Made by a program: the position numbers and the translations under genes. Under the pieces are notes generated by a model that saw nothing but the letters and a program-made list of their open reading frames with translations, had not been told where the DNA came from and did not search any database. Shown one piece after another: positions 8,973 to 56,980 of a stretch of 64,000 bases of DNA; within the stretch, counting starts at the first letter, position 1, and every line of letters starts with the position of its first letter. Source of the stretch: Octopus vulgaris (Eukaryota); assembly GCA_951406725.2 (NCBI GenBank), contig OX597819.1, forward strand, positions 60,326,001 to 60,390,000, in the 5' to 3' direction.

Positions 8973-9339
8973 GAAATATAGTGACAAAAGAGTGAAAGTA
9001 TTAATGCATATACCCATGCCCATTCCCTCTTTTTTTAGGATGGGGTAGCCACAACAAGACACACACCAGGCATTCCATTCATTTCCCAGTCTTGTATATG
9101 ACTATAAACTACATCCAGTAGTGGGACCCTGGGGCCCTGGTTTCTCTTAGCCACTATTGTTCCCAGATCTACTTTAGCCTGGAGTGGTAGCACCTGTAAG
9201 GGTCCCAGCTATGGGTTAACTAGCAAGTGCTCCTGCAACTGGGAGGTGGGAATCAGTAGAATGCAGTTGCCATATTCTCTGCGTGGCGTAAGAGGTGACT
9301 AAAAGGGGTAGGAGTGAGGGGACTAGAAATCCTCTCCTC

Positions 9340-10590
9340 CATCATCATCATCGTTTAGTGTCTGCTTTCCATGCTAGCATGGGTTGGATGGTTCAACTGG
9401 GGTCTGGGAAGCCAGAAGGCTGCACCAGGCCCAGTCTGATCTGGCAATGTTTCCACGGCTGGATGCCCTTCCTAACGCCAACCACTCCGTGAGTGTAGTG
9501 GGTGCTTTTTACATGCCACCGGCACAGGTGCCAGATGAGGCTGGCAAACGGCCATGATCGGATGGTGCTTTTTACATGCCACCGGCACGGGGGCCAGGCG
9601 AGGCAGGCAACGGCCACAAATGGATGGTGCTTTTTACGTGCCACCAGCACGAGGCCAGTCGGGGCGGCACTGGCAAGGGCCACATTCGGATGGTTCTCTT
9701 ACGTGCCACCAGCACTGGTATCACAGCTGCAATTTCCATTGATGTTGATCGATTTCAATTCTCACTTGCCTCAACAGGTCTTCACAAGTAGGGTTTTGTG
9801 TCCCCAGAAGGAAAGGTATGCATAAGTGGACTGGCACATCCCGGGTTATGGTCTCACTTGTCCTGCCGGTACTTCTCATGCACAGCACACTTCCAAAGGT
9901 CTCGGTCTCTAGTCATTTCCTCAGTGAGACCTAAAGTTCGAAGGTCGTGCTTCACCGCCTCGTCCCAGGTTTTCCTGGGTCTGCCTCTTCCACAGACTCC
10001 TTCAACCGCTAGGGTATGGCACTTTTTCACACAACTATCTTCATCCATTCTTGCCACATGACCATACCAGTGCAAACATCTCTCTTGCACACCACAACTG
10101 ATGCTTCTTAGGTCCAGCTTTTCTCTCAAGGTACTTACACTCTGTCAAGTATGAACACTGACATTACACATCCATCGGAGCATACTGGCTTCATTTCTTG
10201 CGAGCTTACGCATATGCTCAGCAGTCACGGCCCATGTTTCACTGCCATGTAGCATGGCTGTTCGTACACACGCATCATACAGTCTGCCTTTTACTCTGAG
10301 CGAGAGGCCTTTTGTCACCAGCAGAGGTAAGAGCTCTCTGAACTTTGCCCAAGCTATTCTTACTCTAGCAGTTACACTTTCAGCACACCCGCCCCCGCTA
10401 CTGACTTGGTCATCTAGGTAACGGAAGCTATCAACTATTTCTAGTTTTTCTCCCTGGAAAGTGACAGAAGTTGGTCTCAGAGCATTTTCAGTGTTTATTG
10501 CTCCTGAGCATCTGCCACATACAAAAACTATCTTCCTAGTTAGCCTTCCTTTGACATTGCTGCACCTCTTATGTGTCCATAGCTTACATG
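9340..10590 (-). mobile_element. 5'-truncated RTE-clade LINE (RT C-terminal half, 3' UTR, (GAT)n tail)
   Basis: Translation CKLWTHKRCS...CGRC...LEIVDSFRYL...RVRIAWAKFRELLPLL...LYDACVRTAMLHGSETW...WYGHVARM...GRGRPRKTW, with one in-frame stop. Confidence 0.92.
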
Positions 10591-10856
10591 TAAATCCATA
10601 TTTCTAAAAATACAGCAAATTTTATGATCGACATTATGAGGTACATTTAGTATGTAGGTATCTTCTTACCAAAAGCTGTGAATTGAAAGAAACATAAGAA
10701 TATTGGATACACAGCTCATAGTATTTGTACCAACTCTCTGCTCCCAGAGTTCAAATTCTGCTGAGGTCAACTCGCAATTGAAACCATCAGAAAATTGATT
10801 ATCAATCATTTGATAATTAAATGAGAATCTCCAGTTACATGGTTTCAGTTGCAAGT

Positions 10857-11504: not shown

Positions 11505-12055
11505 TTCGAAATCGAACCAAATTCGACGACTGGCACCCATGCCAACCTTCCTTCATTGGACACTAAACTCTGCTTGCGAAGACCTGTTGGGACAAATGAA
11601 ATTGAAATTGAACCAAATTCGATGACTAGCACCCATGCCAGTGGAGCACTAACAGCTCCATCTGAGCGGGATCTCTGCCAAAGCAGCTGTCTGGCTTCCG
11701 TGCCGGTGGCATGTAAAAAGCACCATTTGAGTGTGATCATTACCTGCGTTGCCTTACTGGCACTTGTGCCAGTGGCATGTGAACAAAATATTCGAGCAAG
11801 GTTGTTGCCAGTGCAACTGGAACTGACTCCTGTGCAGGTGGCACGTAAAAAACACCATGTGAGTGGCACGTAAAAGCACCCACTACACTCTCTGAGTGGT
11901 TGGCGTTAAGAAGGGCAGCTAGCTGTAGAAACTCTGCCAGATCAGATTGGAGCCTGGTGCAGCCATCTGGTTCGCCAGTCCTCAGTCAAATCGTCCAACC
12001 CATGCTAGCGTGGAAAGTGGACGTTAAATGATGATGATGAGGATGACGATGATGA
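11505..12055 (+). mobile_element. RTE LINE 3' UTR fragment with (GAT)n tail
   Basis: Reverse-complement similarity to 9340-9790, with repeated GTGGCAYGTAAAAAGCACC units. Confidence 0.85.
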
Positions 12056-20870: not shown

Positions 20871-21190
20871 GCCGGTGGCATGTAAGAGAACCTTCCGTTT
20901 TGCGACTGTTGCCAGCGCCGCCCCGACTGGCCTCATGCCGGTGGCACATAAAAAGCACCATCTGTTCGTGGCCGTTTGCCAGCTCTGTCTGGCACCTGTG
21001 CGGGTGGCACGTAAAAAGCACCCACTACACTCACGGAGTGATTGGCGTTGGGAAGGGCATCCAGCCGTACAAATACTGCCAGATTTGACTGGGCCTGATG
21101 AAGCCTTCTGGCTTCACAGACCCCAGTAGAACCGTCCAACTCATGCTAGCATGGAAAACGGACGCTAAACGATGATGATGATGATGATGA
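20871..21190 (+). mobile_element. RTE LINE 3' UTR fragment with (GAT)n tail
   Basis: Matches the reverse complement of 9340-9715. Confidence 0.85.
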
Positions 21191-21330
21191 TATATATATA
21201 TCAGTGGTATATGGTGGTTGTTGTACTGGGTGTGCTGCCACACCCAATGTCATCAAATTTCAAGCAGGGGTATCAGAAAAGTTTTCCATTAAGAGTTGTA
21301 ATTAAATGAATGAGTGAGGAATATACACCC

Positions 21331-23467: not shown

Positions 23468-23979
23468 CCGTAAATCCTCAAGTATAGTCTGCCCTTGCGT
23501 ATAATACGCAGTGGATATTTAGGGGACTGTACCTCTGAAAAACCTAAACCTTGTGTATAATATGCACCCCTTCTCTAACTTGAGTCAAGGAGGTCTATAT
23601 AACGTCCTTGGTTTGTAAAAATGTATACGGTAACTTCCTTTATTATTATTGTATATATAACATAATGCAAACGTGTAGCTTTTTTGTGCATTTTGTTTGC
23701 AGAAAATAAAGAAATAACAGTAATAACGTTTAATAAATGTTGCTAACTGCAAGTTATGGATGATTCTTTTATGACTTCATTGCTTTCAGGCTTAGCTTAA
23801 GGTATTTTCGCACCTGACATCACAAAATGCAACTGAATAAACATTGCCGGACAGCAAATAGAGACTCGGACCTTGCTTAGAAAATAATTTTCATTTTTAA
23901 CCTTGTATATAGTACGCACTAGAGATTTTGACCTTTAAATTTTTGGGGGAAAATGCGGATTATACTCGAGGATTTACGG
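23468..23979. mobile_element. pogo-like non-autonomous DNA transposon
   Basis: TA|CCGTAAATCCTCAAGTATA ... TATACTCGAGGATTTACGG|TA (TIRs with TA TSD). Confidence 0.85.
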
Positions 23980-24501
23980 TAACTGAAATAAACTCTGATG
24001 TGGAAGCTCTTTAATTTTGTTATGTGGCCTCACCAGGAGGGTTGAGGTCACGAAAATAGTACTCAGTTCTTTCTATAAAGTGATTAGCATTATGAAGGGT
24101 AGTTAGTCGTAGAAACCATGAAACATCGGTGCAACACATTGGTGTACACCGACCAGTTAGATCCAGTCGAAATGTCCAACCCATATCAGCCTAGAAAGCG
24201 GACGTAAAATAATGATGATCATGGTTGCATACACACACACGGGAGTTTGTACATGGTCACTGAATCTGTTAGTAATAACTGCCAAATCTCTCTCAAATTT
24301 ACAACCCTACTGTTTCCAATAAGGAAGAGAAATATTGGACAATGTATTCTAGATTGTCCTAAAAAGGAGGGATGGTTACATCTAGAACGGTTTTGATCAT
24401 GAGTCTGTTCAATCAGGACTAGCCTGCCACTAAATATCAATAACATCACTACACATGAAGAAAGGTGTAACTGTTTTCTTAAATAACTAGCACAAAACAG
24501 C

Positions 24502-24734
24502 GGTACTACTTAAGAAGAGTGGTCCCGGTGCGCACACTCGCGTACTCGCGCTAGCTAGTCGTGACTAGTCGATCCTTACTTTGTGTTTTTGTTTTATTTA
24601 CTTTGTGTAAAAAAAAATATTTATTTTGTGTTTTATTTACTTTGCTAGGTAGTCGTTGTAGGGTCGACTAGTCACGACTAGCTAGCACGGATGCGCGAGT
24701 ACGCGCACCGGGACCACTCTTCTCAAGTAGTACC
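24502..24734. mobile_element. Hairpin MITE with GGTACT termini and degenerate 9-bp TSD
   Basis: ~75-bp TIRs GGTACTACTTAAGAAGAGTGGTCCCGGTGCG... / ...CGCACCGGGACCACTCTTCTCAAGTAGTACC. Flanks CAAAACAGC and CGAAATAGC match at 7 of 9. Confidence 0.85.
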
Positions 24735-25411
24735 CGAAATAGCTACACGTACCTATTGTCCTTAACTGAAAGAAGCTAGTATTTTAAAGCTTTCTAAAAA
24801 GTTGCGAAAATAAAATATTATTGTCTCAGAAACATAAGCGGATACTTTGAAGACATTTAACATTCAAAGCAAAGAAATATGATACCCATTGCGGCAAGTT
24901 CTTTTATTTCCTTTTATTTTTTCTAGACTATGGGCTTATGGTTTAATATCGGGGTACTTGTCAATTGTCGTGGTCCCGGTTTTGCACACGCGAATTCGCG
25001 CGCGCGCGCGCGTCAGACGTAGGTACTCGATACTCGAGATCCTACGAGGTGACTTGCGCATGCGCAGTGCAGAATTCGCGCGTGCGCGTTAACCCCCTCC
25101 CCCCAAAAAAAAGGTGTTGGATTTCACTAAAAATATATGTGTGTGTGTGTGTGTGTATATATAACATTTTCAATTTTACACAAAAAATTACATAGTCGCT
25201 TTCCTCGCGGATTTACAGAGAAATGAATTAATTACTATTTTACAGAATAAAATTAATGAATTAATTATATAAATTAAATAATTCTTGAAAATTAATTAAT
25301 ATTAATAATATTTTTTGAACAAAGTAAATAATTTATAAAACTTGGTTAATAATTTTTTTTACACAAACGCGAACGTATATAATTTGGTAAACTTAATGAA
25401 TTAATTTCTTC

Positions 25412-25830
25412 TCATCATCATCATCGTTTAACGTCCGTTCTCCATGCCAGCATGGGTTGGACGGTTCGACCGGGGATCTGGGAAGCCAGAAGGCTGCACC
25501 AGACTCCAGTCTTATCTGGCAATGTTTCTACAGCTGGATGCCCTTCCTAACGCCAACCACTCCGAGAGTGTAGTGGGTGCTTTTTACATGCCACCCGCAC
25601 AGGTGCCAGGAGAGGCTGGCAACGGCCACGGTCGGATTGGTGCCAGTCGAGGCGGCTCTGGCATCGGCCACGATTCGGATAGTGCTTTTTACGTACCACC
25701 AGTCCAGGGGTCCTGGCATTTGCCGGGTGCCACACTTGCCCCAACATGTCTTCGCAAGCAAAGGGGTTGGCATGGGTGCCTGTCGTGGGATGAGGTTCGA
25801 TATCAACTTCGCTTGCCTCAACAGGTCTTT
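25412..25830 (-). mobile_element. RTE 3' UTR fragment nested in the left foldback arm
   Basis: (CAT)n start and similarity to 9340-9790. Confidence 0.85.
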
Positions 25831-26263
25831 GTGTATAAATGTATAAATTTTTCGCACTAAATTCTTTCCGTAGAATTTATAAAAAAACGCGCAAAATTAT
25901 TCCGTAGACTTTATCAAATTAAAAAACGCAAAATTAATATATTTTTTGAAATTGCAAATTATTTAGAATATAAAACAAATTAAGTTAAATTTTAAAAATA
26001 AATGTCATATACTTATACTCTGTAAGGTGCTGTGTTCACACTTCAATTTACTATTTTCTAGAAATGTTGCTTTTCTAATTGAAACAATTTTTCTCAATCT
26101 CCATTTAAAAGTCCATAATGCCTCTTGAGCCATATCAAAATGAACAACTTTGAATTACCCGGTGGTGGTGGTGTGAGGTTCTAATTTTTTTCTGATCTCT
26201 CTTTGCCCCCCCTAGATGGAGGTGTGGTGGGGAGACAGATGAAAGATGTTTCATTCTCTACTA

Positions 26264-26332
<69 letters not shown>

Positions 26333-26907
26333 CTTAAACCTACACGATATAGTCTATAAATTTGGGATGTTTTTGAAAGATAATATATTTTGTCATCAGA
26401 ATATATATACTTTCTCACACTACAATTAAGATATATTTATTTTAAATCGTTCATCTTTTCCCGCGACAACAAAAATTGGGCGCGAAAATTTTTCTAAATA
26501 TTAGCTGAATGAACAACTGAGATAAAGAGGGGGCAAAGAGAGATCAGAAAAAAAATTAGAACCTCACACCACCACCGGGTAATTCAAAGTTGTTCATTTT
26601 GATATGGCTCAAGAGGCATTATGGACTTTTAAATGGAGATTGAGAAAAATTGTTTCAATTAGAAAAGCAACATTTCTAGAAAATAGTAAATTGAAGTGTG
26701 AACACAGCACCTTACAGAGTATAAGTATATGACATTTATTTTTAAAATTTAACTTAATTTGTTTTATATTCTAAATAATTTGCAATTTCAAAAAATATAT
26801 TAATTTTGCGTTTTTTAATTTGATAAAGTCTACGGAATAATTTTGCGCGTTTTTTTATAAATTCTACGGAAAGAATTTAGTGCGAAAAATTTATACATTT
26901 ATACACA

Positions 26908-27325
26908 AAGACCTGTTGAGGCAAGCGAAGTTGATATCGAACCTCATCCCACGACAGGCACCCATGCCAACCCCCTTTGCTTGCGAAGACATGTTGGGGC
27001 AAGTGTGGCACCCGGCAAATGCCAGGACCCCTGGACTGGTGGTACGTAAAAAGCACTATCCGAATCGTGGCCGATGCCAGAGCCGCCTCGACTGGCACCA
27101 ATCCGACCGTGGCCGTTGCCAGCCTCTCCTGGCACCTGTGCGGGTGGCATGTAAAAGCACCCACTACACTCTCGGAGTGGTTGGCGTTAGGAAGGGCATC
27201 CAGCTGTAGAAACATTGCCAGATAAGACTGGAGTCTGGTGCAGCCTTCTGGCTTCCCAGATCCCCGGTCGAACCGTCCAACCCATGCTGGCATGGAGAAC
27301 GGACGTTAAACGATGATGATGATGA
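26908..27325 (+). mobile_element. RTE 3' UTR fragment nested in the right foldback arm
   Basis: Mirror copy of 25412-25830. Confidence 0.85.
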
Positions 27326-28298
27326 GAAGAAATTAATTCATTAAGTTTACCAAATTATTATACGTCTGTAAAAAAAAAAAAGTTTCACAAATTATATACG
27401 TTCGCGTTTGTGTAAAAAAAATTATTAACCAAGTTTTATAAATTATTTACTTTGTTCAAAAAATATTATTAATATTAATTAATTTTCAAGAATTATTTAA
27501 TTTATATAATTAATTCATTAATTTTATTCTGTAAAATAGTAATTAATTCATTTCTCTGTAAATCCGCGAGGAAAGCGACTATGTAATTTTTTGTGTAAAA
27601 TTGAAAATGTTATATATACACACACACACACACATATATTTTTAGTGAAATCCAACACCTTTTTTTTTTAGGGGGGGGGTTAACGCGCACGCGCGAATTC
27701 TGCACTGCGCATGCGCAAGTCACCTCGTAGGATCTCGAGTATCGAGTACCTACGTCTGACGCGCGCGCGCGCGCGAATTCGCGTGTGCAAAACCGGGACC
27801 ACGACAATTGACAAGTACCTAATATCGGTTTATTGTCAAACTTAAAGGTTTTACAAATACTTGCATTTTAACGTTATTGCAAAGCTTTAAAATGGTGATT
27901 GTTTTAGAAACAGATCGCATGTAATTTTTTAATGAACTGACATATTACTATGAACTACAATTTTTCAGCCACAGAATTCGTCTGTTTTAACTAGATTTTA
28001 TTGATCTCTATACCAAATTCGTCTAGGCCAAATTATCATTCGTATTTTCTTTAGTTGCTTTTCCATCATAAAACGAAAATTAGGAGGCAGAGGACATTAG
28101 TAAGTGACTGGGTGAAATGAGATTTTTTTTACTTATTTTTAATTTACTTGATATACTGTTCTTATTCTTAAATTTGCAGCTGTTTTATCGATATTACATT
28201 CTTATTTAAACCTTATTAAATGTTTAATATAACAAAAATATAAAAACAATAAAAAAAAACTTAGTGTCTGAACTTGATTCATTTCAATATATCTATCA

Positions 28299-31799: not shown

Positions 31800-32890
31800 C
31801 ACCAAGTTTTCTACAACGCGTCTTCACCCCTGACCCATCTTCACCTCCTTTCCAGCAGGTTCTGGCGCTGGGATCGATGGCTTACGACCTCATCATCTCA
31901 AGAATGATATCTCCCTGTCAACTGGTGATGCTGGGCTCGAACTCTTGGAGAACCTAACACAGTTCATAAACTTGTTCTCGTCCGAGAGCGTCCTTGCCTA
32001 CATTTGTCCCCTGTTCTTTGGACCAAACTATTTGGTCTCACCAAGTCCAACGGTTGCCTTCGCCCCATAGCTGCTGGTTGCACTCTGTGACGGCTCACAG
32101 CAAAATTGTGCTTGTCCTCAGTTTCTAATTGCCTGAAGAATTTTCCCCTATTCAGCTAGGAGTGGGTACTAAGCTAGGTTGTGAGACTGCTGCTCATGCC
32201 ACCAGGATTTTCACCAACTTGCTCTCTGAGTCCCCAAAGTTCATCCTCAAACTTGACTTTAAAAATGCTTTTAACTTCATCAGTCGAGACGTCATTCTCC
32301 GTGCAGTAAGGGAGAATTCCCCACCATTTCATCACTTTGCTGGGCAAGCCTATCGGGAGCCCTCCTACCTCTCGTTTGGTGATCACCTCATCCCATCTGC
32401 TTCTGGAGTCCAACAGGGTGATCCACTTGGTCCTGCCTTATTCGCATTGTTACGAAGATGGAAGACGACATACACATAAATGCCTGGGACCTCAATGATG
32501 CTTGTTTGGGGGAAGGGGGCTCCTGACAGGGTGCTTGCAACTGCGAGACGATGTTCGAGATGCTTGGTCATAGAGGCGTTAGTGTTAACAGCTCCAAATG
32601 CAAGCTCTGGCTCCTCAACCACTCAGTTTTGCATGAGCACACTACTAAACTATTTGTTGACTCCTTCCCTTCAATCGTGATTCCTCCTTCACCAGCATGG
32701 TGTTCCCTTGGAGCCCCAGTTACTGACCTAGCTTTCGAGTCCATCTTTAGATCCAAAATGGCTAACCTCGAACAACTTTAAAAAAAAACCTTGAAGTAAT
32801 TGAGGCCCACCAAGGTTTTTTTATACTTAGGAATTACTTCTCTATTCCTAAGCTATTGTATTTTCTGAGGGTTAGTCCATCTTACAGATT
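31800..32890 (+). pseudogene. CRE-clade-like non-LTR reverse transcriptase relic
   Basis: SFPAGSGAGIDGLRPHHLK, LRPIAAGCTL*RLTAK, QLGVGTKLGCETAAHATR, LKLDFKNAFN, GVQQGDPLGPALF. The catalytic motif has decayed to WDLND; stops and frameshifts are present. Confidence 0.8.
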
Positions 32891-37587: not shown

Positions 37588-38038
37588 TGTTTGTTCCTTC
37601 TCAAGCCATGCCTGGCTCATAGGGCCAGTTTCCCGGTTTCCTTGGCGTATGGGTTCCGCACCTGGACGGGATGCCGGTCCGTCGCAGGTGAGAGAAAGTT
37701 GTGGCGAAAGAGTCAGCAGAAGTTCGCCATTACCTTCTGCCGGAGCCGCGTGGAGCTTAGGTGTTTCGCTCATAAACATACACATCACCCGGTCTGAGAT
37801 TCGAACCCACGATCCCTCGACCGTATGGGTTCCGCACCTGGACGGGATGCCGGTCCGTCGCAGGTGAGAGAAAGTTGTGGCGAAAGAGTCAGCAGAAGTT
37901 CGCCATTACCTTCTGCCGGAGCCGCGTGGAGCTTAGGTGTTTCGCTCATAAACATACACATCACCCGGTCTGAGATTCGAACCCACGATCCCTCGACCGC
38001 GAGTCGGCTGCACTAACCACTAGGCCATGTGCCTCCAC
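37588..38038 (-). mobile_element. tRNA-derived SINE family D with internal 176-bp tandem duplication
   Basis: Minus strand has A box TGGCCTAGTGG and B box GGTTCGAATC. Units are 37646-37821 and 37822-37997. Related copy at 62969-63280. Confidence 0.88.
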
Positions 38039-52651: not shown

Positions 52652-55600
52652 ATGGGGAATTATTTCTCTCGTATGGGATGTTGTCATGCTGATGACGATG
52701 AACACGGTGACTTTTCAAAACCCGCGGCGAAGCCCCTGGAGGAGAAGACACCGATCGCTGCTTCGTTAAAACCTCACGATCTCCATATTATTGAAAGACA
52801 GCCTGAATCGAGTAATGAAGAAAAGACGCACAGTTTTGAGAAAATTAACGTGCTCCTTGCTTCGCCGACAAAAATTTGTGCACATTCTAATAAAAACTCC
52901 AATGCAAATCCACTAATTCATCCGGTCTACACGAAACCTCCAACTGCTATTGCAGGATATAGCGAGGATCCTATGATAAAAGAGCTCAAAGAACGATTTA
53001 AAAACAGATCTCTTTCCAAGTCTATTGAGGATGGCAGCCCTGATATCAATGACCGTCAACCAATCCTTTCGAAAAAGTGTGGTGGAACACCATTGAAAGC
53101 TTATGTATCTTATACAACTGAACAAGGACAATTAGACCAACCAGATTTCATTAGAGAAAAGACACCAAATGATGAATTTTGTACCCGTTTTGCCAGAGAG
53201 GAGACCCCTCCTTTTATCGAAGTAAGGTTGTCACCTGTTATTGAACTTACTCCCACAGTTGCTAAAATAATAGAAACGAAGCCTGAAGTCTCACAAAACT
53301 GTGTCTGTTTAGAACAGCCCAAACGTCTCAACACTGCCAATGTTGATCCACCAGAGAAGATTCATGAATCAGTCCTTGTTGACATTGCAAATGGAAGTGT
53401 ACTGGATAGTCTCCGAAATCAATCTTTCACTTTTAAAGAAGATGAAACCAATGATAAACCCAAGGTATTAGATTATATTAACGAGGGTTTTAAACATAGC
53501 TCTGGCTCACTGCATAAAGAAGAGATGACAATTATTAAAAGAGATTCAAATGGAGGTTATAAGGTTTTCAAGGAATGCATTGTTTCTACTTTGGTACACA
53601 ACAATGAAGCATTTACAGACAGTTCTCAGTCCCTGACAGATAAATGGGATATGACTCCAGGTTATGATGATTATCCATATCACAAATCAGCTAATAATAG
53701 AGGCGAACCAAAATTCCAAATCAGCACAGACAGTTCTTATACAGCATTAGATGAAGACAAAATGGTCCAAGTGCGTGTTGTGGACAATCCACTTTCAGAG
53801 GAATCTTATGATCTTTGTTCTTTTGATGGCTATCATAATGTCCCAGAAAAACAACAATTACTTCCTCAAGACTCACGTACTTACCTTTGGGAAGATGACG
53901 ATGAACATGATGCTGATGATGAAGAAACATTCCTTGAGTCTACACCACCTATACAAAGTAAAAGAAATTGCCAGCTATCTACTGATTCAGAAACTGTGTG
54001 TTCTACAGACCTTTTCCTTCCTGATTCTGACAGTTCCCATGATTCCCTGACACCAGAGAATAAATTGATGGAATTTTCTTCTCCAACAAATATATCAGAT
54101 TTTGCAGATAAGACTGTGTCAAGCTGCATTGACAATGCTCAAAAATGTATTTCTCAAAATGAAACAACCCAAGAAAGTTTCAGAGAATATCCACTGAAAT
54201 CCTTTGGAAAATATATTCTTGATAAAAAAGTGTCATTTGAAGATGAACTAGCAAATAATAATGCTTCCACTAATTTTGACACCACATCTGATTCAGTTGA
54301 CCTGCCCCCAGAAGAAGAACAGATCCAGAGAGAGACATCATTTGAAAATGATGCCCCATCTTTTTCACCCAGTGAATGCTCTTCTTCTACATTTCCATAT
54401 GATAATGATGGAGATGTAGAAAAAACACAGGATGACAGAAAAGATAGTCAAAATGGGAACCATTTAAACAGAGCTACACCAGATAATAACGATCAACGAG
54501 AAAATGAAAACGATAACGAATTTCCGTCCCCTCCTGAGGAATTTCTTGAATTTCGAGAACTTCTTGAAAAAGAAGGATTCAGCAAGGAAGAGTTTATGAG
54601 TGTCAGTGAAACAGGAGGTGAATTATTGGATCTGAATGAAGAAAATATTTATTTCCAGAGAGATGGTTCTCATTCTTTAGATATTAGTGAAGACACTAAT
54701 TTGCTTGCAAATCTGAATGAGTCACATTTCCTGGAAGAAGCAATATCTCATTCATCTGGTTACGATGATCGTTCCGTAGAGAATGAGCGAATTTCCCTCC
54801 TAGACAACAATGAACAACTTCTTGCATCTTATGACAGTGATTCCTTCCAGCATGGAGGACATGTTTCATATGATAATGATTTATTAGATCAATCAATTAC
54901 AAGTGATTATTATTCATCTGGTGATAGAGATCAACATTTTTCTGAATTTTCTCAGTTCTCTTTGAAAGGCAATGAAAAAAGATTTGCAGTTTTAGAAGGA
55001 TCCAGTGGTCACAGTAGCCAAGACGAAGTAACAGATGCTGATGTTAAAACTGGCACAACACATCCATCGTTTAAAAAGAAACCTCAAATACCACACTCAG
55101 CTCCAATGATTAACAGGAGTGGATCCTTTGAATTTGAAGACATTGCTAAAGATTTATCGACATTTAAAAGAGATATTTCCCTCAATAGTGATACTGATGC
55201 CTCATGTTCATCACCTGTATCAGACGTAAGAGTTGATTTGTTGAGTAAAGTCAGGCACCCTTCATCTCAGAAACAAAATAATTCAAATAATGAAAACAAA
55301 ACTGAAAGCAAATTACCTCGAATGATGTCACACGAACTTGAATGTTTCAGCTTAAGTGATCCCGAAGAGAAAAAAGTGATACTTGAACCTGATTTTGGTT
55401 ATCCTATTGCCAAAACTGATGCATTACAAAGGCAAGAATCAGAGTCAGAGAAAGGACCAACGAAAGCAAAGTCTGACAATGAATTACCAAGTGATGAAAC
55501 CACAGACAATATCAAACATGAATTCACTGAAGAAAATATTCTAGATTCATCAACGGATTCTACCAGTGACCCTTCATGTATACAGCTTCAAGACCCAACA

Positions 55601-56980
55601 ACTGAAACCACACTGTCAGAAAATAAAGACAAAGAGGCTGAAGACAGTGGTTGTTCAATAGATAAAAGTTCCAAAATTAAAGAGGTTTTAGAAACAAAAG
55701 AAATTCTTGCTAAATCTTTGAAAGAAAATGAAAATCAAATTGAAACTGATGACAGTGAACTTTTGCCATCACCAAAGCTTAGACGTCAGTCAACATTGAA
55801 AACTAGTGAGATGTTTTCAATGGCTTTAATGGAGGAATTACAGGAAGAACTCAGCTCAGATGCTCAATCAGATCGATCCAAATGTTCCATCAGTTCAGAT
55901 ATTCCAAAGATTGTAATGACATCACCAAATGGATCCACAACATCATCATCATCACCTAGAAGTTCTCAGATAGATTTGTCCAGTTCAAATGATAAAGAGG
56001 CGCCGGCAACTCAACAAATCTTTTCTCTACGCTTCCGTCAACCAGCTGCTGACTATGTCACATTTCGTAACAGACTTGAAACGACATATGTTTCACTTGA
56101 AAATGTTCTCCTTCGAAATAACATAATTCTTGGAACTGTGAAAATAAAACCAATGGGTAATAAGAAATCTGTTTTTCTCCGTTGCTCATTTAATCTTTGG
56201 GAGACATCCGTAGATATTCCTGCCACACATACCCCTAGCAGCTTCCCGAATCAATATGAAACTTTTAGCTTTGCCTTAACCATGCCAGTGTCCTTCGAAG
56301 AAATCATGCATGTTGTTTTTGCAGTTTGCTACAAAAGTGATGATCAGACTTATTGGGACAATAACGACAATAAGAACTATGAAATAGTATCAACCCATAC
56401 TATTCAGCAAGAAATGCTTTCCAAATTCCGTTCAAGTGAAACTGAAGCTGTGTTACCAAAATGCTACCCAAGTGTGTTGAAGAAAGGTGTGACATCTTTC
56501 TCAAGTAATTCCTCTTGGGATGTGGCTTCATCTATAAAAGAAACCAAACATATTAGAAAATCAGCTATTTGCTTGAATGTTTCTAAACCTGCTGCTGATT
56601 ATGTCACTTTTAAAAGCCGCCTTGAGAGAGACTTTGTAGCTTTAGAACACGTTTTTAATAAGGACTTCATGTTAACTGGTAGCATCAAAGTTAAAAATTT
56701 AAATGTAAAGAAAACCGTATTTATACGATGCAGTTTTGATGGATGGAAGACTTGCATAGATGTACCTGCTAGCTTGTCTAATACAGAATACACATATCCA
56801 TATGAAACGTACACCTTTGAAATGAATGTACCAACAGTTTTTAATACTAAAATGCAGTTTGCGGTTTGTTATCAAGCTGGTGATAATGTCTTTTGGGACA
56901 ATAACGGTGATAAAAACTATCAAATTTGTTTTTTCGATATGTATGCTAAAATGCAAGTTGACCCCTGGAAAGGACAGTAG
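52652..56980 (+). CDS. PPP1R3-like glycogen-targeting protein with two tandem CBM21 domains (1442 aa)
   Basis: Uninterrupted 4.3-kb ORF. Two repeats (aa ~1124-1245 and ~1306-1425) carry CBM21 hallmarks (PAADY..F..RL....V.LE, G.(V/I)K(I/V)K...KK.VF.RCSF..W, FAVCY.....(Y/F)WDNN..KNY). RVxF-type KKVSF at aa 525-529. Confidence 0.93.
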   Translation: MGNYFSRMGCCHADDDEHGDFSKPAAKPLEEKTPIAASLKPHDLHIIERQPESSNEEKTHSFEKINVLLASPTKICAHSNKNSNANPLIHPVYTKPPTAIAGYSEDPMIKELKERFKNRSLSKSIEDGSPDINDRQPILSKKCGGTPLKAYVSYTTEQGQLDQPDFIREKTPNDEFCTRFAREETPPFIEVRLSPVIELTPTVAKIIETKPEVSQNCVCLEQPKRLNTANVDPPEKIHESVLVDIANGSVLDSLRNQSFTFKEDETNDKPKVLDYINEGFKHSSGSLHKEEMTIIKRDSNGGYKVFKECIVSTLVHNNEAFTDSSQSLTDKWDMTPGYDDYPYHKSANNRGEPKFQISTDSSYTALDEDKMVQVRVVDNPLSEESYDLCSFDGYHNVPEKQQLLPQDSRTYLWEDDDEHDADDEETFLESTPPIQSKRNCQLSTDSETVCSTDLFLPDSDSSHDSLTPENKLMEFSSPTNISDFADKTVSSCIDNAQKCISQNETTQESFREYPLKSFGKYILDKKVSFEDELANNNASTNFDTTSDSVDLPPEEEQIQRETSFENDAPSFSPSECSSSTFPYDNDGDVEKTQDDRKDSQNGNHLNRATPDNNDQRENENDNEFPSPPEEFLEFRELLEKEGFSKEEFMSVSETGGELLDLNEENIYFQRDGSHSLDISEDTNLLANLNESHFLEEAISHSSGYDDRSVENERISLLDNNEQLLASYDSDSFQHGGHVSYDNDLLDQSITSDYYSSGDRDQHFSEFSQFSLKGNEKRFAVLEGSSGHSSQDEVTDADVKTGTTHPSFKKKPQIPHSAPMINRSGSFEFEDIAKDLSTFKRDISLNSDTDASCSSPVSDVRVDLLSKVRHPSSQKQNNSNNENKTESKLPRMMSHELECFSLSDPEEKKVILEPDFGYPIAKTDALQRQESESEKGPTKAKSDNELPSDETTDNIKHEFTEENILDSSTDSTSDPSCIQLQDPTTETTLSENKDKEAEDSGCSIDKSSKIKEVLETKEILAKSLKENENQIETDDSELLPSPKLRRQSTLKTSEMFSMALMEELQEELSSDAQSDRSKCSISSDIPKIVMTSPNGSTTSSSSPRSSQIDLSSSNDKEAPATQQIFSLRFRQPAADYVTFRNRLETTYVSLENVLLRNNIILGTVKIKPMGNKKSVFLRCSFNLWETSVDIPATHTPSSFPNQYETFSFALTMPVSFEEIMHVVFAVCYKSDDQTYWDNNDNKNYEIVSTHTIQQEMLSKFRSSETEAVLPKCYPSVLKKGVTSFSSNSSWDVASSIKETKHIRKSAICLNVSKPAADYVTFKSRLERDFVALEHVFNKDFMLTGSIKVKNLNVKKTVFIRCSFDGWKTCIDVPASLSNTEYTYPYETYTFEMNVPTVFNTKMQFAVCYQAGDNVFWDNNGDKNYQICFFDMYAKMQVDPWKGQ

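What the first reader, a model, noticed from the sequence alone, without database searches (positions are those of the whole stretch)
24953..27819. Young 2.87-kb foldback transposon that is almost entirely inverted repeat
Seen: arms of ~1258 and ~1291 bp that by eye differ mainly in homopolymer or short-repeat length plus a ~35-bp insert near 27359-27395, a ~320-bp (TA)n-containing spacer, GG...CC ends, a perfect TAATATCGG TSD and no transposase. Established: 9-bp TSDs with long TIRs fit Mutator/FB-type elements, and Merlin elements have GG ends with 8-9-bp TSDs. Inference: a recent, possibly undescribed non-autonomous family able to form cruciforms, or >1.2 kb of dsRNA if transcribed, which matters in animals with extensive ADAR editing.
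Basis: partly seen in the sequence, partly recalled or inferred. Interest (0 to 1): 0.75.

Follow-up and report, generated by a model that had tools for sequence, protein, structure and literature searches.

The report
Young octopus foldback DNA transposon
This 2.9-kb non-coding jumping element, made almost entirely of two mirror-image arms, belongs to a multi-copy family in an octopus genome, is missing from this spot in the four sequencing runs that cover it, and is likely moved by a Merlin-type transposase encoded elsewhere; long-armed elements of this build are already known from zebrafish and flies.

Summary
Observation confirmed. 24953-27819 has arms of about 1.26 and 1.29 kb (1250 matches, 5 mismatches, 6 indels), GGTAC...GTACC ends and a perfect 9-bp TSD; 0 of 44 open stretches hit Pfam. 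Host: Octopus of the vulgaris/sinensis group. New here: (1) an empty site with one TAATATCGG in 4 of 4 contig runs laid on the right flank (both flanks matched in 2); the filled junction was not seen in any run; (2) arms and spacer-arm junction are multi-copy (single contigs 25-250 times flank depth); (3) both arms carry the same 418-bp LINE 3' end in mirror position, so one arm was likely copied from the other; (4) a 233-bp sister MITE with related ends lies 218 bp away. Ends and TSD fit Merlin (about 0.6) or Mutator (about 0.3); no transposase partner could be searched. Kilobase-TIR non-autonomous Merlins are in Repbase (zebrafish), and a 2026 O. vulgaris library, not viewable here, lists recently active Merlins averaging 2.6 kb, so it may be catalogued. 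The dsRNA/ADAR idea is untested.

The parts
24944..24952 (.). Left copy of 9-bp target-site duplication TAATATCGG
   Evidence: single copy at the empty site
24953..26213 (+). Left arm (terminal inverted repeat), starts GGTAC
   Evidence: multi-copy in runs X1, X5
25412..25829 (-). 5'-truncated LINE 3' end (or SINE sharing it) with (TGA)n tail inside left arm
   Evidence: 74-87% identical to copies at 9333-9782, 20955-21193, 11858-12043; the 9333-9782 copy continues into an RT/PHD-type frame at 9854-10603
25866..25936 (+). Two-copy 34-bp tandem repeat in left arm (mirror at 26801-26871)
26214..26525 (.). Asymmetric non-coding spacer with (TA)34 at 26262-26330
   Evidence: spacer and spacer-arm junction contigs are multi-copy
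26526..27819 (-). Right arm (terminal inverted repeat), ends GTACC
   Evidence: multi-copy in X1, X2, X4, X5
26908..27325 (+). Mirror copy of the same LINE 3' end in the right arm, same truncation point and tail
27359..27395 (-). 37-nt unit present in right arm only, bounded by short direct repeats
   Evidence: present in a contig of depth 1525 against flank 11.6 in X2
27820..27828 (.). Right copy of the 9-bp TSD
24502..24734 (.). Sister 233-bp hairpin MITE with related ends (19 of first 27 nt identical) and a decayed 9-bp TSD (24493-24501 / 24735-24743, 7 of 9 identical); older insertion, filled in X1 and X5

Best explanation
It is a non-coding member of a multi-copy terminal-inverted-repeat DNA transposon family that inserted here recently, likely by cut-and-paste using a Merlin-type transposase encoded elsewhere in the genome. 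Shown: intact symmetric ends, 9-bp duplication of a target that is single at the empty site, no coding remnant, family-level copy number. Inferred: the transposase binds the outer ~30 bp (GGTACT...GTGGTCCCGG, shared with the sister MITE), excises the element and inserts it with a 9-nt stagger. Inferred: the kilobase arms arose because one arm, after picking up a LINE 3' end, was copied onto the other end in a founder copy (template switch or conversion during repair of a break), as proposed for Galileo TIR extension; the founder then amplified, so the near-identity of the arms is inherited from a young master copy. Merlin rather than Mutator is an assignment from ends, TSD and host context only.
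For: Empty site: X1's 736-nt contig matches 24706-24952 (record 490-736) and 27820-28290 (record 28-498) with 0 differences, sharing exactly one 9-mer; X5's 1902-nt contig does the same in another labelled organism; X2 and X4 contigs stop matching at 27820 and run on by 238 and 245 nt, the length of the left flank. Positive control: at the sister MITE, flank contigs of X1 and X5 run 26-30 nt into the element. Family: single contigs on arm-specific DNA at depth 2033-2908 against flank 11.6 (X2) and 4673 against 54.5 (X5); spacer-arm junction 923.6 (X2) and 1412 (X5); arm to spacer ratio about 2-3.4. Several arm differences are real family variants in multi-copy contigs (26547, 27369, 27660, the 37-nt unit). 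Merlin: TIRs with 5'-GG-3' and 8- or 9-bp TSD (PMC8101967 passages); Repbase Merlin-1_DR and non-autonomous Merlin-N5_DR listed with TIR 1000 (its S1 Table); Merlin found almost only in cephalopods among molluscs in automatic libraries (PMC10294476 passage); recently active Merlin in O. vulgaris: 2 families, 11 insertions, 28,998 bp, mean 2.6 kb, against Mutator mean 0.9 kb (PMC13282606 Table 1). TIR extension by copying internal sequence: PMC3573991 Discussion.
Against: No contig or read showing the filled junction at this locus was listed in any of the 6 runs laid (tables were cut). No autonomous partner was found or could be searched (no genome held). GG ends and a 9-bp TSD also fit Mutator-like elements, which have long TIRs as a hallmark and 21 recently active families in O. 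vulgaris. The arm is far longer than the 24-462 bp first described for Merlin. The recently active Merlin count (11 insertions) is below my rough copy estimate (about 25-120 elements). Whether the shorter subfamily lacking the LINE piece is ancestral or a deletion product is unresolved.
Confidence: 0.6

Rival explanations
1. Same young non-autonomous element, but mobilised by a Mutator-like (Phantom/Rehavkus/FB-type) transposase.
For: MULE TSDs are 8-11 bp and long TIRs are their hallmark (PMC6446971 passages); Tm1 of nematodes is an animal Mutator/Foldback family with 9-bp TSDs (PMC3169594 abstract and passages); 21 recently active Mutator families in O. vulgaris.
Against: Both local families start with exactly GG, the stated Merlin hallmark; arms lack the long arrays of short repeats of FB/Tm1 TIRs (only a 2-copy 34-mer and degenerate 37-nt units); mean size of recently active Mutator insertions is 0.9 kb.
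Confidence: 0.3
2. The family is real but this insertion is not a germline allele: a mis-join in the assembly, or a somatic/mosaic insertion caught by long reads.
For: All 4 runs that cover the site show it empty, two of them (X1, X2) with flanks identical to the window over the stretch laid; no filled junction listed.
Against: A mis-join or fold-back read would not duplicate exactly 9 bp of target and resume collinear flank; both spacer-arm junctions and the asymmetric 37-nt unit exist in short-read-type contigs; contigs drop rare variants and the tables were cut.
Confidence: 0.06
3. A one-off fold-back: two short elements head to head, or a local inverted duplication (such as the inverted Penelope ends noted elsewhere in this genome), not a unit that moves as a whole.
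For: Arms are nearly identical and contain a retroposon piece; inverted retroelement stubs were reported by other agents in this genome (unchecked).
Against: One TSD encloses the whole 2867 bp; ends are symmetric with no tail; the spacer and its junction with the arm are multi-copy (25-80 times flank depth); the ends are shared with an independent MITE.
Confidence: 0.04

Closest known systems
Zebrafish Merlin-N5_DR and Merlin-1_DR (Repbase; seen only as rows of S1 Table of PMC8101967)
   Same: Merlin elements listed with TIR size 1000; Merlin-N5_DR is non-autonomous, about 4.3 kb, with mirrored internal repeats
   Different: Sequence not compared (not available); no LINE fragment in both arms is reported in the table; different host
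Merlin superfamily (Feschotte 2004, not read; definition from PMC8101967 passages)
   Same: 5'-GG ends, 9-bp TSD, non-autonomous derivatives with internal repeats; present and recently active in O. vulgaris (PMC13282606, whole main text parts 1-2 of 3 and supplement row)
   Different: TIR about three times the longest in the original description; link to a Merlin transposase not shown
Galileo 2-TIR elements of Drosophila (PMC3573991, passages and whole Discussion read)
   Same: Non-autonomous copies of 1.7-2.2 kb made almost wholly of TIR, arms up to 1.26 kb, arms extended by copying internal sequence, unequal repeat units between the two arms
   Different: P superfamily with 7-bp TSD; here 9 bp and GG ends; here the copied segment includes a LINE 3' end
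Tm1 / Phantom Mutator-Foldback elements (PMC3169594 abstract and passages; PMC6446971 passages)
   Same: Animal elements with composite TIRs and 9-bp TSDs, mostly non-autonomous
   Different: Tm1 has asymmetric 7-bp ends outside the TIR and arrays of a 14-bp motif; this element has perfect symmetric ends and few internal repeats

Membership tests
Merlin superfamily | Terminal 5'-GG-3' | tested here: met
   GGTAC...GTACC, boundary fixed by the empty site; same in the sister MITE
Merlin superfamily | 8- or 9-bp TSD | tested here: met
   9 bp at 2 of 2 loci in the window (one perfect, one 7 of 9)
Merlin superfamily | TIR length in the known range | tested here: inconclusive
   1.26 kb exceeds 24-462 bp but two zebrafish Repbase entries are listed at 1000
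Merlin superfamily | Same termini around a DDE_Tnp_IS1595 transposase, or match to Merlin termini profiles | not testable with these tools
   No genome held; Dfam termini profiles and Repbase sequences not on hand; element itself non-coding
Mutator/MULE (incl. Phantom, Rehavkus) | 8-11-bp TSD | tested here: met
   9 bp; range from PMC6446971
Mutator/MULE (incl. Phantom, Rehavkus) | Long TIRs | tested here: met
   1.26 kb; the paper's set spans 14-500 bp
Mutator/MULE (incl. Phantom, Rehavkus) | Same termini around a MULE transposase | not testable with these tools
Foldback (structural class) | Long TIRs making up most of the element | tested here: met
   2555 of 2867 nt
Foldback (structural class) | TIRs built of arrays of short tandem repeats | tested here: inconclusive
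   Only a 2-copy 34-mer, a degenerate 37-nt unit and microsatellites
Galileo / P superfamily | 7-bp TSD | tested here: not met
   9 bp here; 7 bp from PMC3573991 passage
MITE | Length usually under 600 bp | tested here: not met
   2867 bp; criterion from PMC3573991 Discussion. The sister element (233 bp) meets it

The most novel reading that the evidence does not exclude
Octopus carries a Merlin transposase that is active now, moving a foldback family whose two arms are kept identical by copying, so that a captured LINE end is mirrored and every new copy drops a ready-made 1.25-kb inverted repeat (a preformed dsRNA/ADAR substrate if it lands in a transcript). The copy here could even be a de novo or mosaic insertion, since its flanks are identical to empty alleles. 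That would give a living animal Merlin system whose jumping can be assayed.
Probability: 0.2. Interest if true: 0.6.

Novelty: new member of a known kind. Interest (0 to 1): 0.3.

Why it matters
Modest. It is a clean example of a polymorphic, very young DNA-transposon insertion in octopus, which implies a working transposase in the recent lineage and offers a marker family. The mirrored LINE fragment is a natural tracer for how kilobase TIRs are built and homogenised. If the mobiliser is a Merlin enzyme, it points to a candidate active Merlin in an animal. None of the architecture is new in kind, and a role in RNA editing has no support yet.

Tried and rejected
Whole genome not held, so no genome-wide copy or partner search. 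Raw-read runs X22 and X23 laid only 16 and 36 reads, none on element-specific sequence and hardly any on the abundant retroposon; dropped as uninformative. Rfam: 0 matches in the window. Terminal motif scan: 0 in viral contigs; 29 loci in metagenome contigs, none with a matching inverted partner at an element end (best 19 of 24, in 2 of 29) and none similar to the element beyond the motif; 7 of 29 fall inside an unrelated dispersed repeat of another eukaryote: chance. Motif search in the 11 supplements of PMC8101967 gave scattered hits, of which 9 passages were shown and none was a similar terminus. PMC10294476: only 12 of 33 supplements were searched, no hit. PMC13282606 supplement holds no sequences; its library is on Zenodo and could not be seen. 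PMC3845634, PMC10045372, PMC5753468, PMC7805219 (passages) gave no terminal sequences that separate Merlin from Mutator. Ten literature searches showed no paper describing this family; that is weak, as repeat libraries are not indexed as text. ORFs in the arms (122-142 aa) are open frames over the retroposon 3' UTR, with no Pfam hit. Galileo/P rejected on TSD length; inverted Penelope stub rejected for lack of tail and for symmetric ends. Summed depths were not used as copy numbers; only single-contig ratios, as rough figures.

Full report
1. The observation. The element runs 24953-27819. A local alignment of the left end with the reverse complement of the right end gives arms 24953-26213 and 26526-27819, with 1250 matches, 5 mismatches and 6 indels; all but one mismatch and all but one indel lie in homopolymer or microsatellite runs, the exception being a 37-nt unit at 27359-27395 in the right arm. 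The ends are GGTAC...GTACC and are flanked by TAATATCGG on both sides (chance about 1e-5). The spacer holds (TA)34. None of 44 stop-free stretches of 25 aa or more in spacer plus right arm matches Pfam, nor do 3 long frames in the arms; Rfam finds nothing in the window.

2. Host. The 1442-aa CBM21 protein at 52652-56980 is 1441 of 1442 identical to the O. sinensis entry and 97% to O. bimaculoides: an Octopus of the vulgaris/sinensis group. No whole genome was held.

3. Positions 25412-25829 and, in mirror image, 26908-27325 are a dispersed repeat with several other copies in the window. It aligns to 9333-9782, the tailed 3' end of a LINE whose broken frame lies at 9854-10603 (the Atlas places one piece with PHD/RVT_1 clusters; the RTE-clade label is my recall). 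Both arms carry it with the same 5' truncation and the same tail. Two independent insertions cannot explain that; one arm was copied from the other after the insertion (inference). A second element, 24502-24734, is a 233-bp hairpin (z = -15.9) with related ends: 19 of the first 27 nt identical, pattern found 4 times in the window against 0 in 100 shuffles, and a decayed 9-bp TSD (7 of 9). Two families with the same end motif and TSD length point to one transposase lineage that binds the outer 30 bp (inference).

4. Empty site. I laid one arm plus one flank per call. In X1 a 736-nt contig matches 24706-24952 (record 490-736) and 27820-28290 (record 28-498) without a difference; the overlap is exactly one copy of the 9-mer. 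X5, labelled as another organism, shows the same with a 1902-nt contig and a slightly different flank haplotype. X2 and X4 were laid on the right side only: their contigs stop matching at 27820 and run on by 238 and 245 nt, as the left flank would. So 4 of 4 runs covering the site show it empty, 2 of them matched on both flanks. At the sister MITE the flank contigs of X1 and X5 do run 26-30 nt into the element, which shows what a filled junction looks like and dates that insertion earlier. Against: no filled junction of the large element was listed in any run; the tables were cut, contigs drop rare variants, heterozygosity is not excluded, and one run may be the assembly's own sample. Two raw-read runs were uninformative.

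5. Family. Single contigs on arm-specific DNA have depth 2033, 2848 and 2908 against 11.6 for the flank in X2, and 4673 against 54.5 in X5; the 2908 contig crosses the edge of the LINE piece, so the piece is part of the family's arm. The junction of spacer and right arm stands at 923.6 (X2) and 1412 (X5), the spacer at 1365 (X5). Ratios are 175-250 and 86 for arms, 80 and 25-26 for the spacer side: roughly tens to a hundred elements, two to three arms per spacer. These are rough, since contig depth is no true copy number. A C-run variant at 26206 (depth 893 and 1030) likely marks the left arm-spacer junction as multi-copy too. Several arm differences (26547, 27369, 27660, the 37-nt unit) occur in multi-copy contigs, so they are not all assembly errors. 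A shorter subfamily, seen in 2 of 4 runs (X2, X5), joins 27421 to 27735 and 26849 to 27392 and lacks the LINE piece; whether it is ancestral or deleted is open.

6. Mechanism. Shown: symmetric ends, target duplicated on insertion, no coding capacity, many copies, recent insertion. From established transposon biology: such elements are excised and reinserted by a DDE transposase supplied in trans, the stagger of the cut giving the TSD. Inferred: arm extension by repair copying in a founder, as argued for Galileo, whose non-autonomous copies are 1.7-2.2 kb of nearly pure TIR with arms up to 1.26 kb (PMC3573991, passages and Discussion). Which enzyme: Merlin elements have 5'-GG ends and 8- or 9-bp TSDs (PMC8101967 passages); Repbase lists zebrafish Merlin-1_DR and non-autonomous Merlin-N5_DR with TIR 1000 (S1 Table, part 1 of 2); Octopus Merlin-like proteins are in that paper's supplement; automatic libraries found Merlin almost only in cephalopods among molluscs (PMC10294476 passage); O. 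vulgaris has 18 Merlin families, 2 of them recently active with 11 insertions averaging 2.6 kb (PMC13282606, parts 1-2 of 3 and supplement row). Mutator-like elements fit the TSD and the long arms as well (PMC6446971 and PMC3169594 passages) and have 21 recently active families there, averaging 0.9 kb. I put Merlin at about 0.6 and Mutator at about 0.3, and do not file it as a member of either, since the defining link to a transposase could not be tested.

7. The dsRNA and cruciform ideas. A full transcript is predicted to pair 1249 of 1261 left-arm bases, with a longest perfect helix of 394 bp. Nothing here shows that it is transcribed; the only intact gene recognised in the window starts 25 kb away. 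A 312-nt spacer makes cruciform extrusion of the long arms unlikely, while hairpins on single-stranded DNA remain plausible (recalled, not tested). An insertion absent from the other runs is unlikely to have a fixed host role at this site.

8. Novelty. New member of a known kind. Interest 0.3: a real, young, well-supported element whose one unusual trait, the mirrored LINE fragment, has a precedent in mechanism.

Noticed in passing
window 24502-24734: 233-bp hairpin MITE with ends related to the large element; very abundant in runs X1 and X5 and filled in both; other contigs also start exactly at 24502, confirming the boundary.
   Followed up: yes
window 52652-56980 +: Single 1442-aa frame with two CBM21 domains, a PPP1R3-like glycogen-targeting subunit (name recalled); annotated as uncharacterized in O. 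sinensis and O. bimaculoides.
   Followed up: partly
window 9333-10603 -: 5'-truncated LINE with RT C-terminal/PHD-type frames and a 3' UTR holding 63-bp tandem units and a (TGA)n tail; source type of the fragment in the arms.
   Followed up: partly
window 23600-23981: Another very abundant repeat ending in TACGGTA, probably a Tc1/mariner-type MITE (recalled signature); about 1e6 summed depth.
   Followed up: no
family variant of 26849-27735: Shorter arm subfamily lacking 542 nt (with the LINE piece) and 313 nt (replaced by 18 nt), depth 529 in X2 and 1645-1948 in X5, not listed in X1 or X4.
   Followed up: partly
window 27820-28290: X4 (labelled organism A) has the same flank haplotype as X5 (organism B), while X1 and X2 match the window exactly; labels and haplotypes do not agree.
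   Followed up: no
window 37646-37999: Perfect 176-bp tandem duplication (100% identical).
   Followed up: no
window 32129-32479 +: Reverse transcriptase fragment (RVT_1, E 1.5e-5).
   Followed up: no
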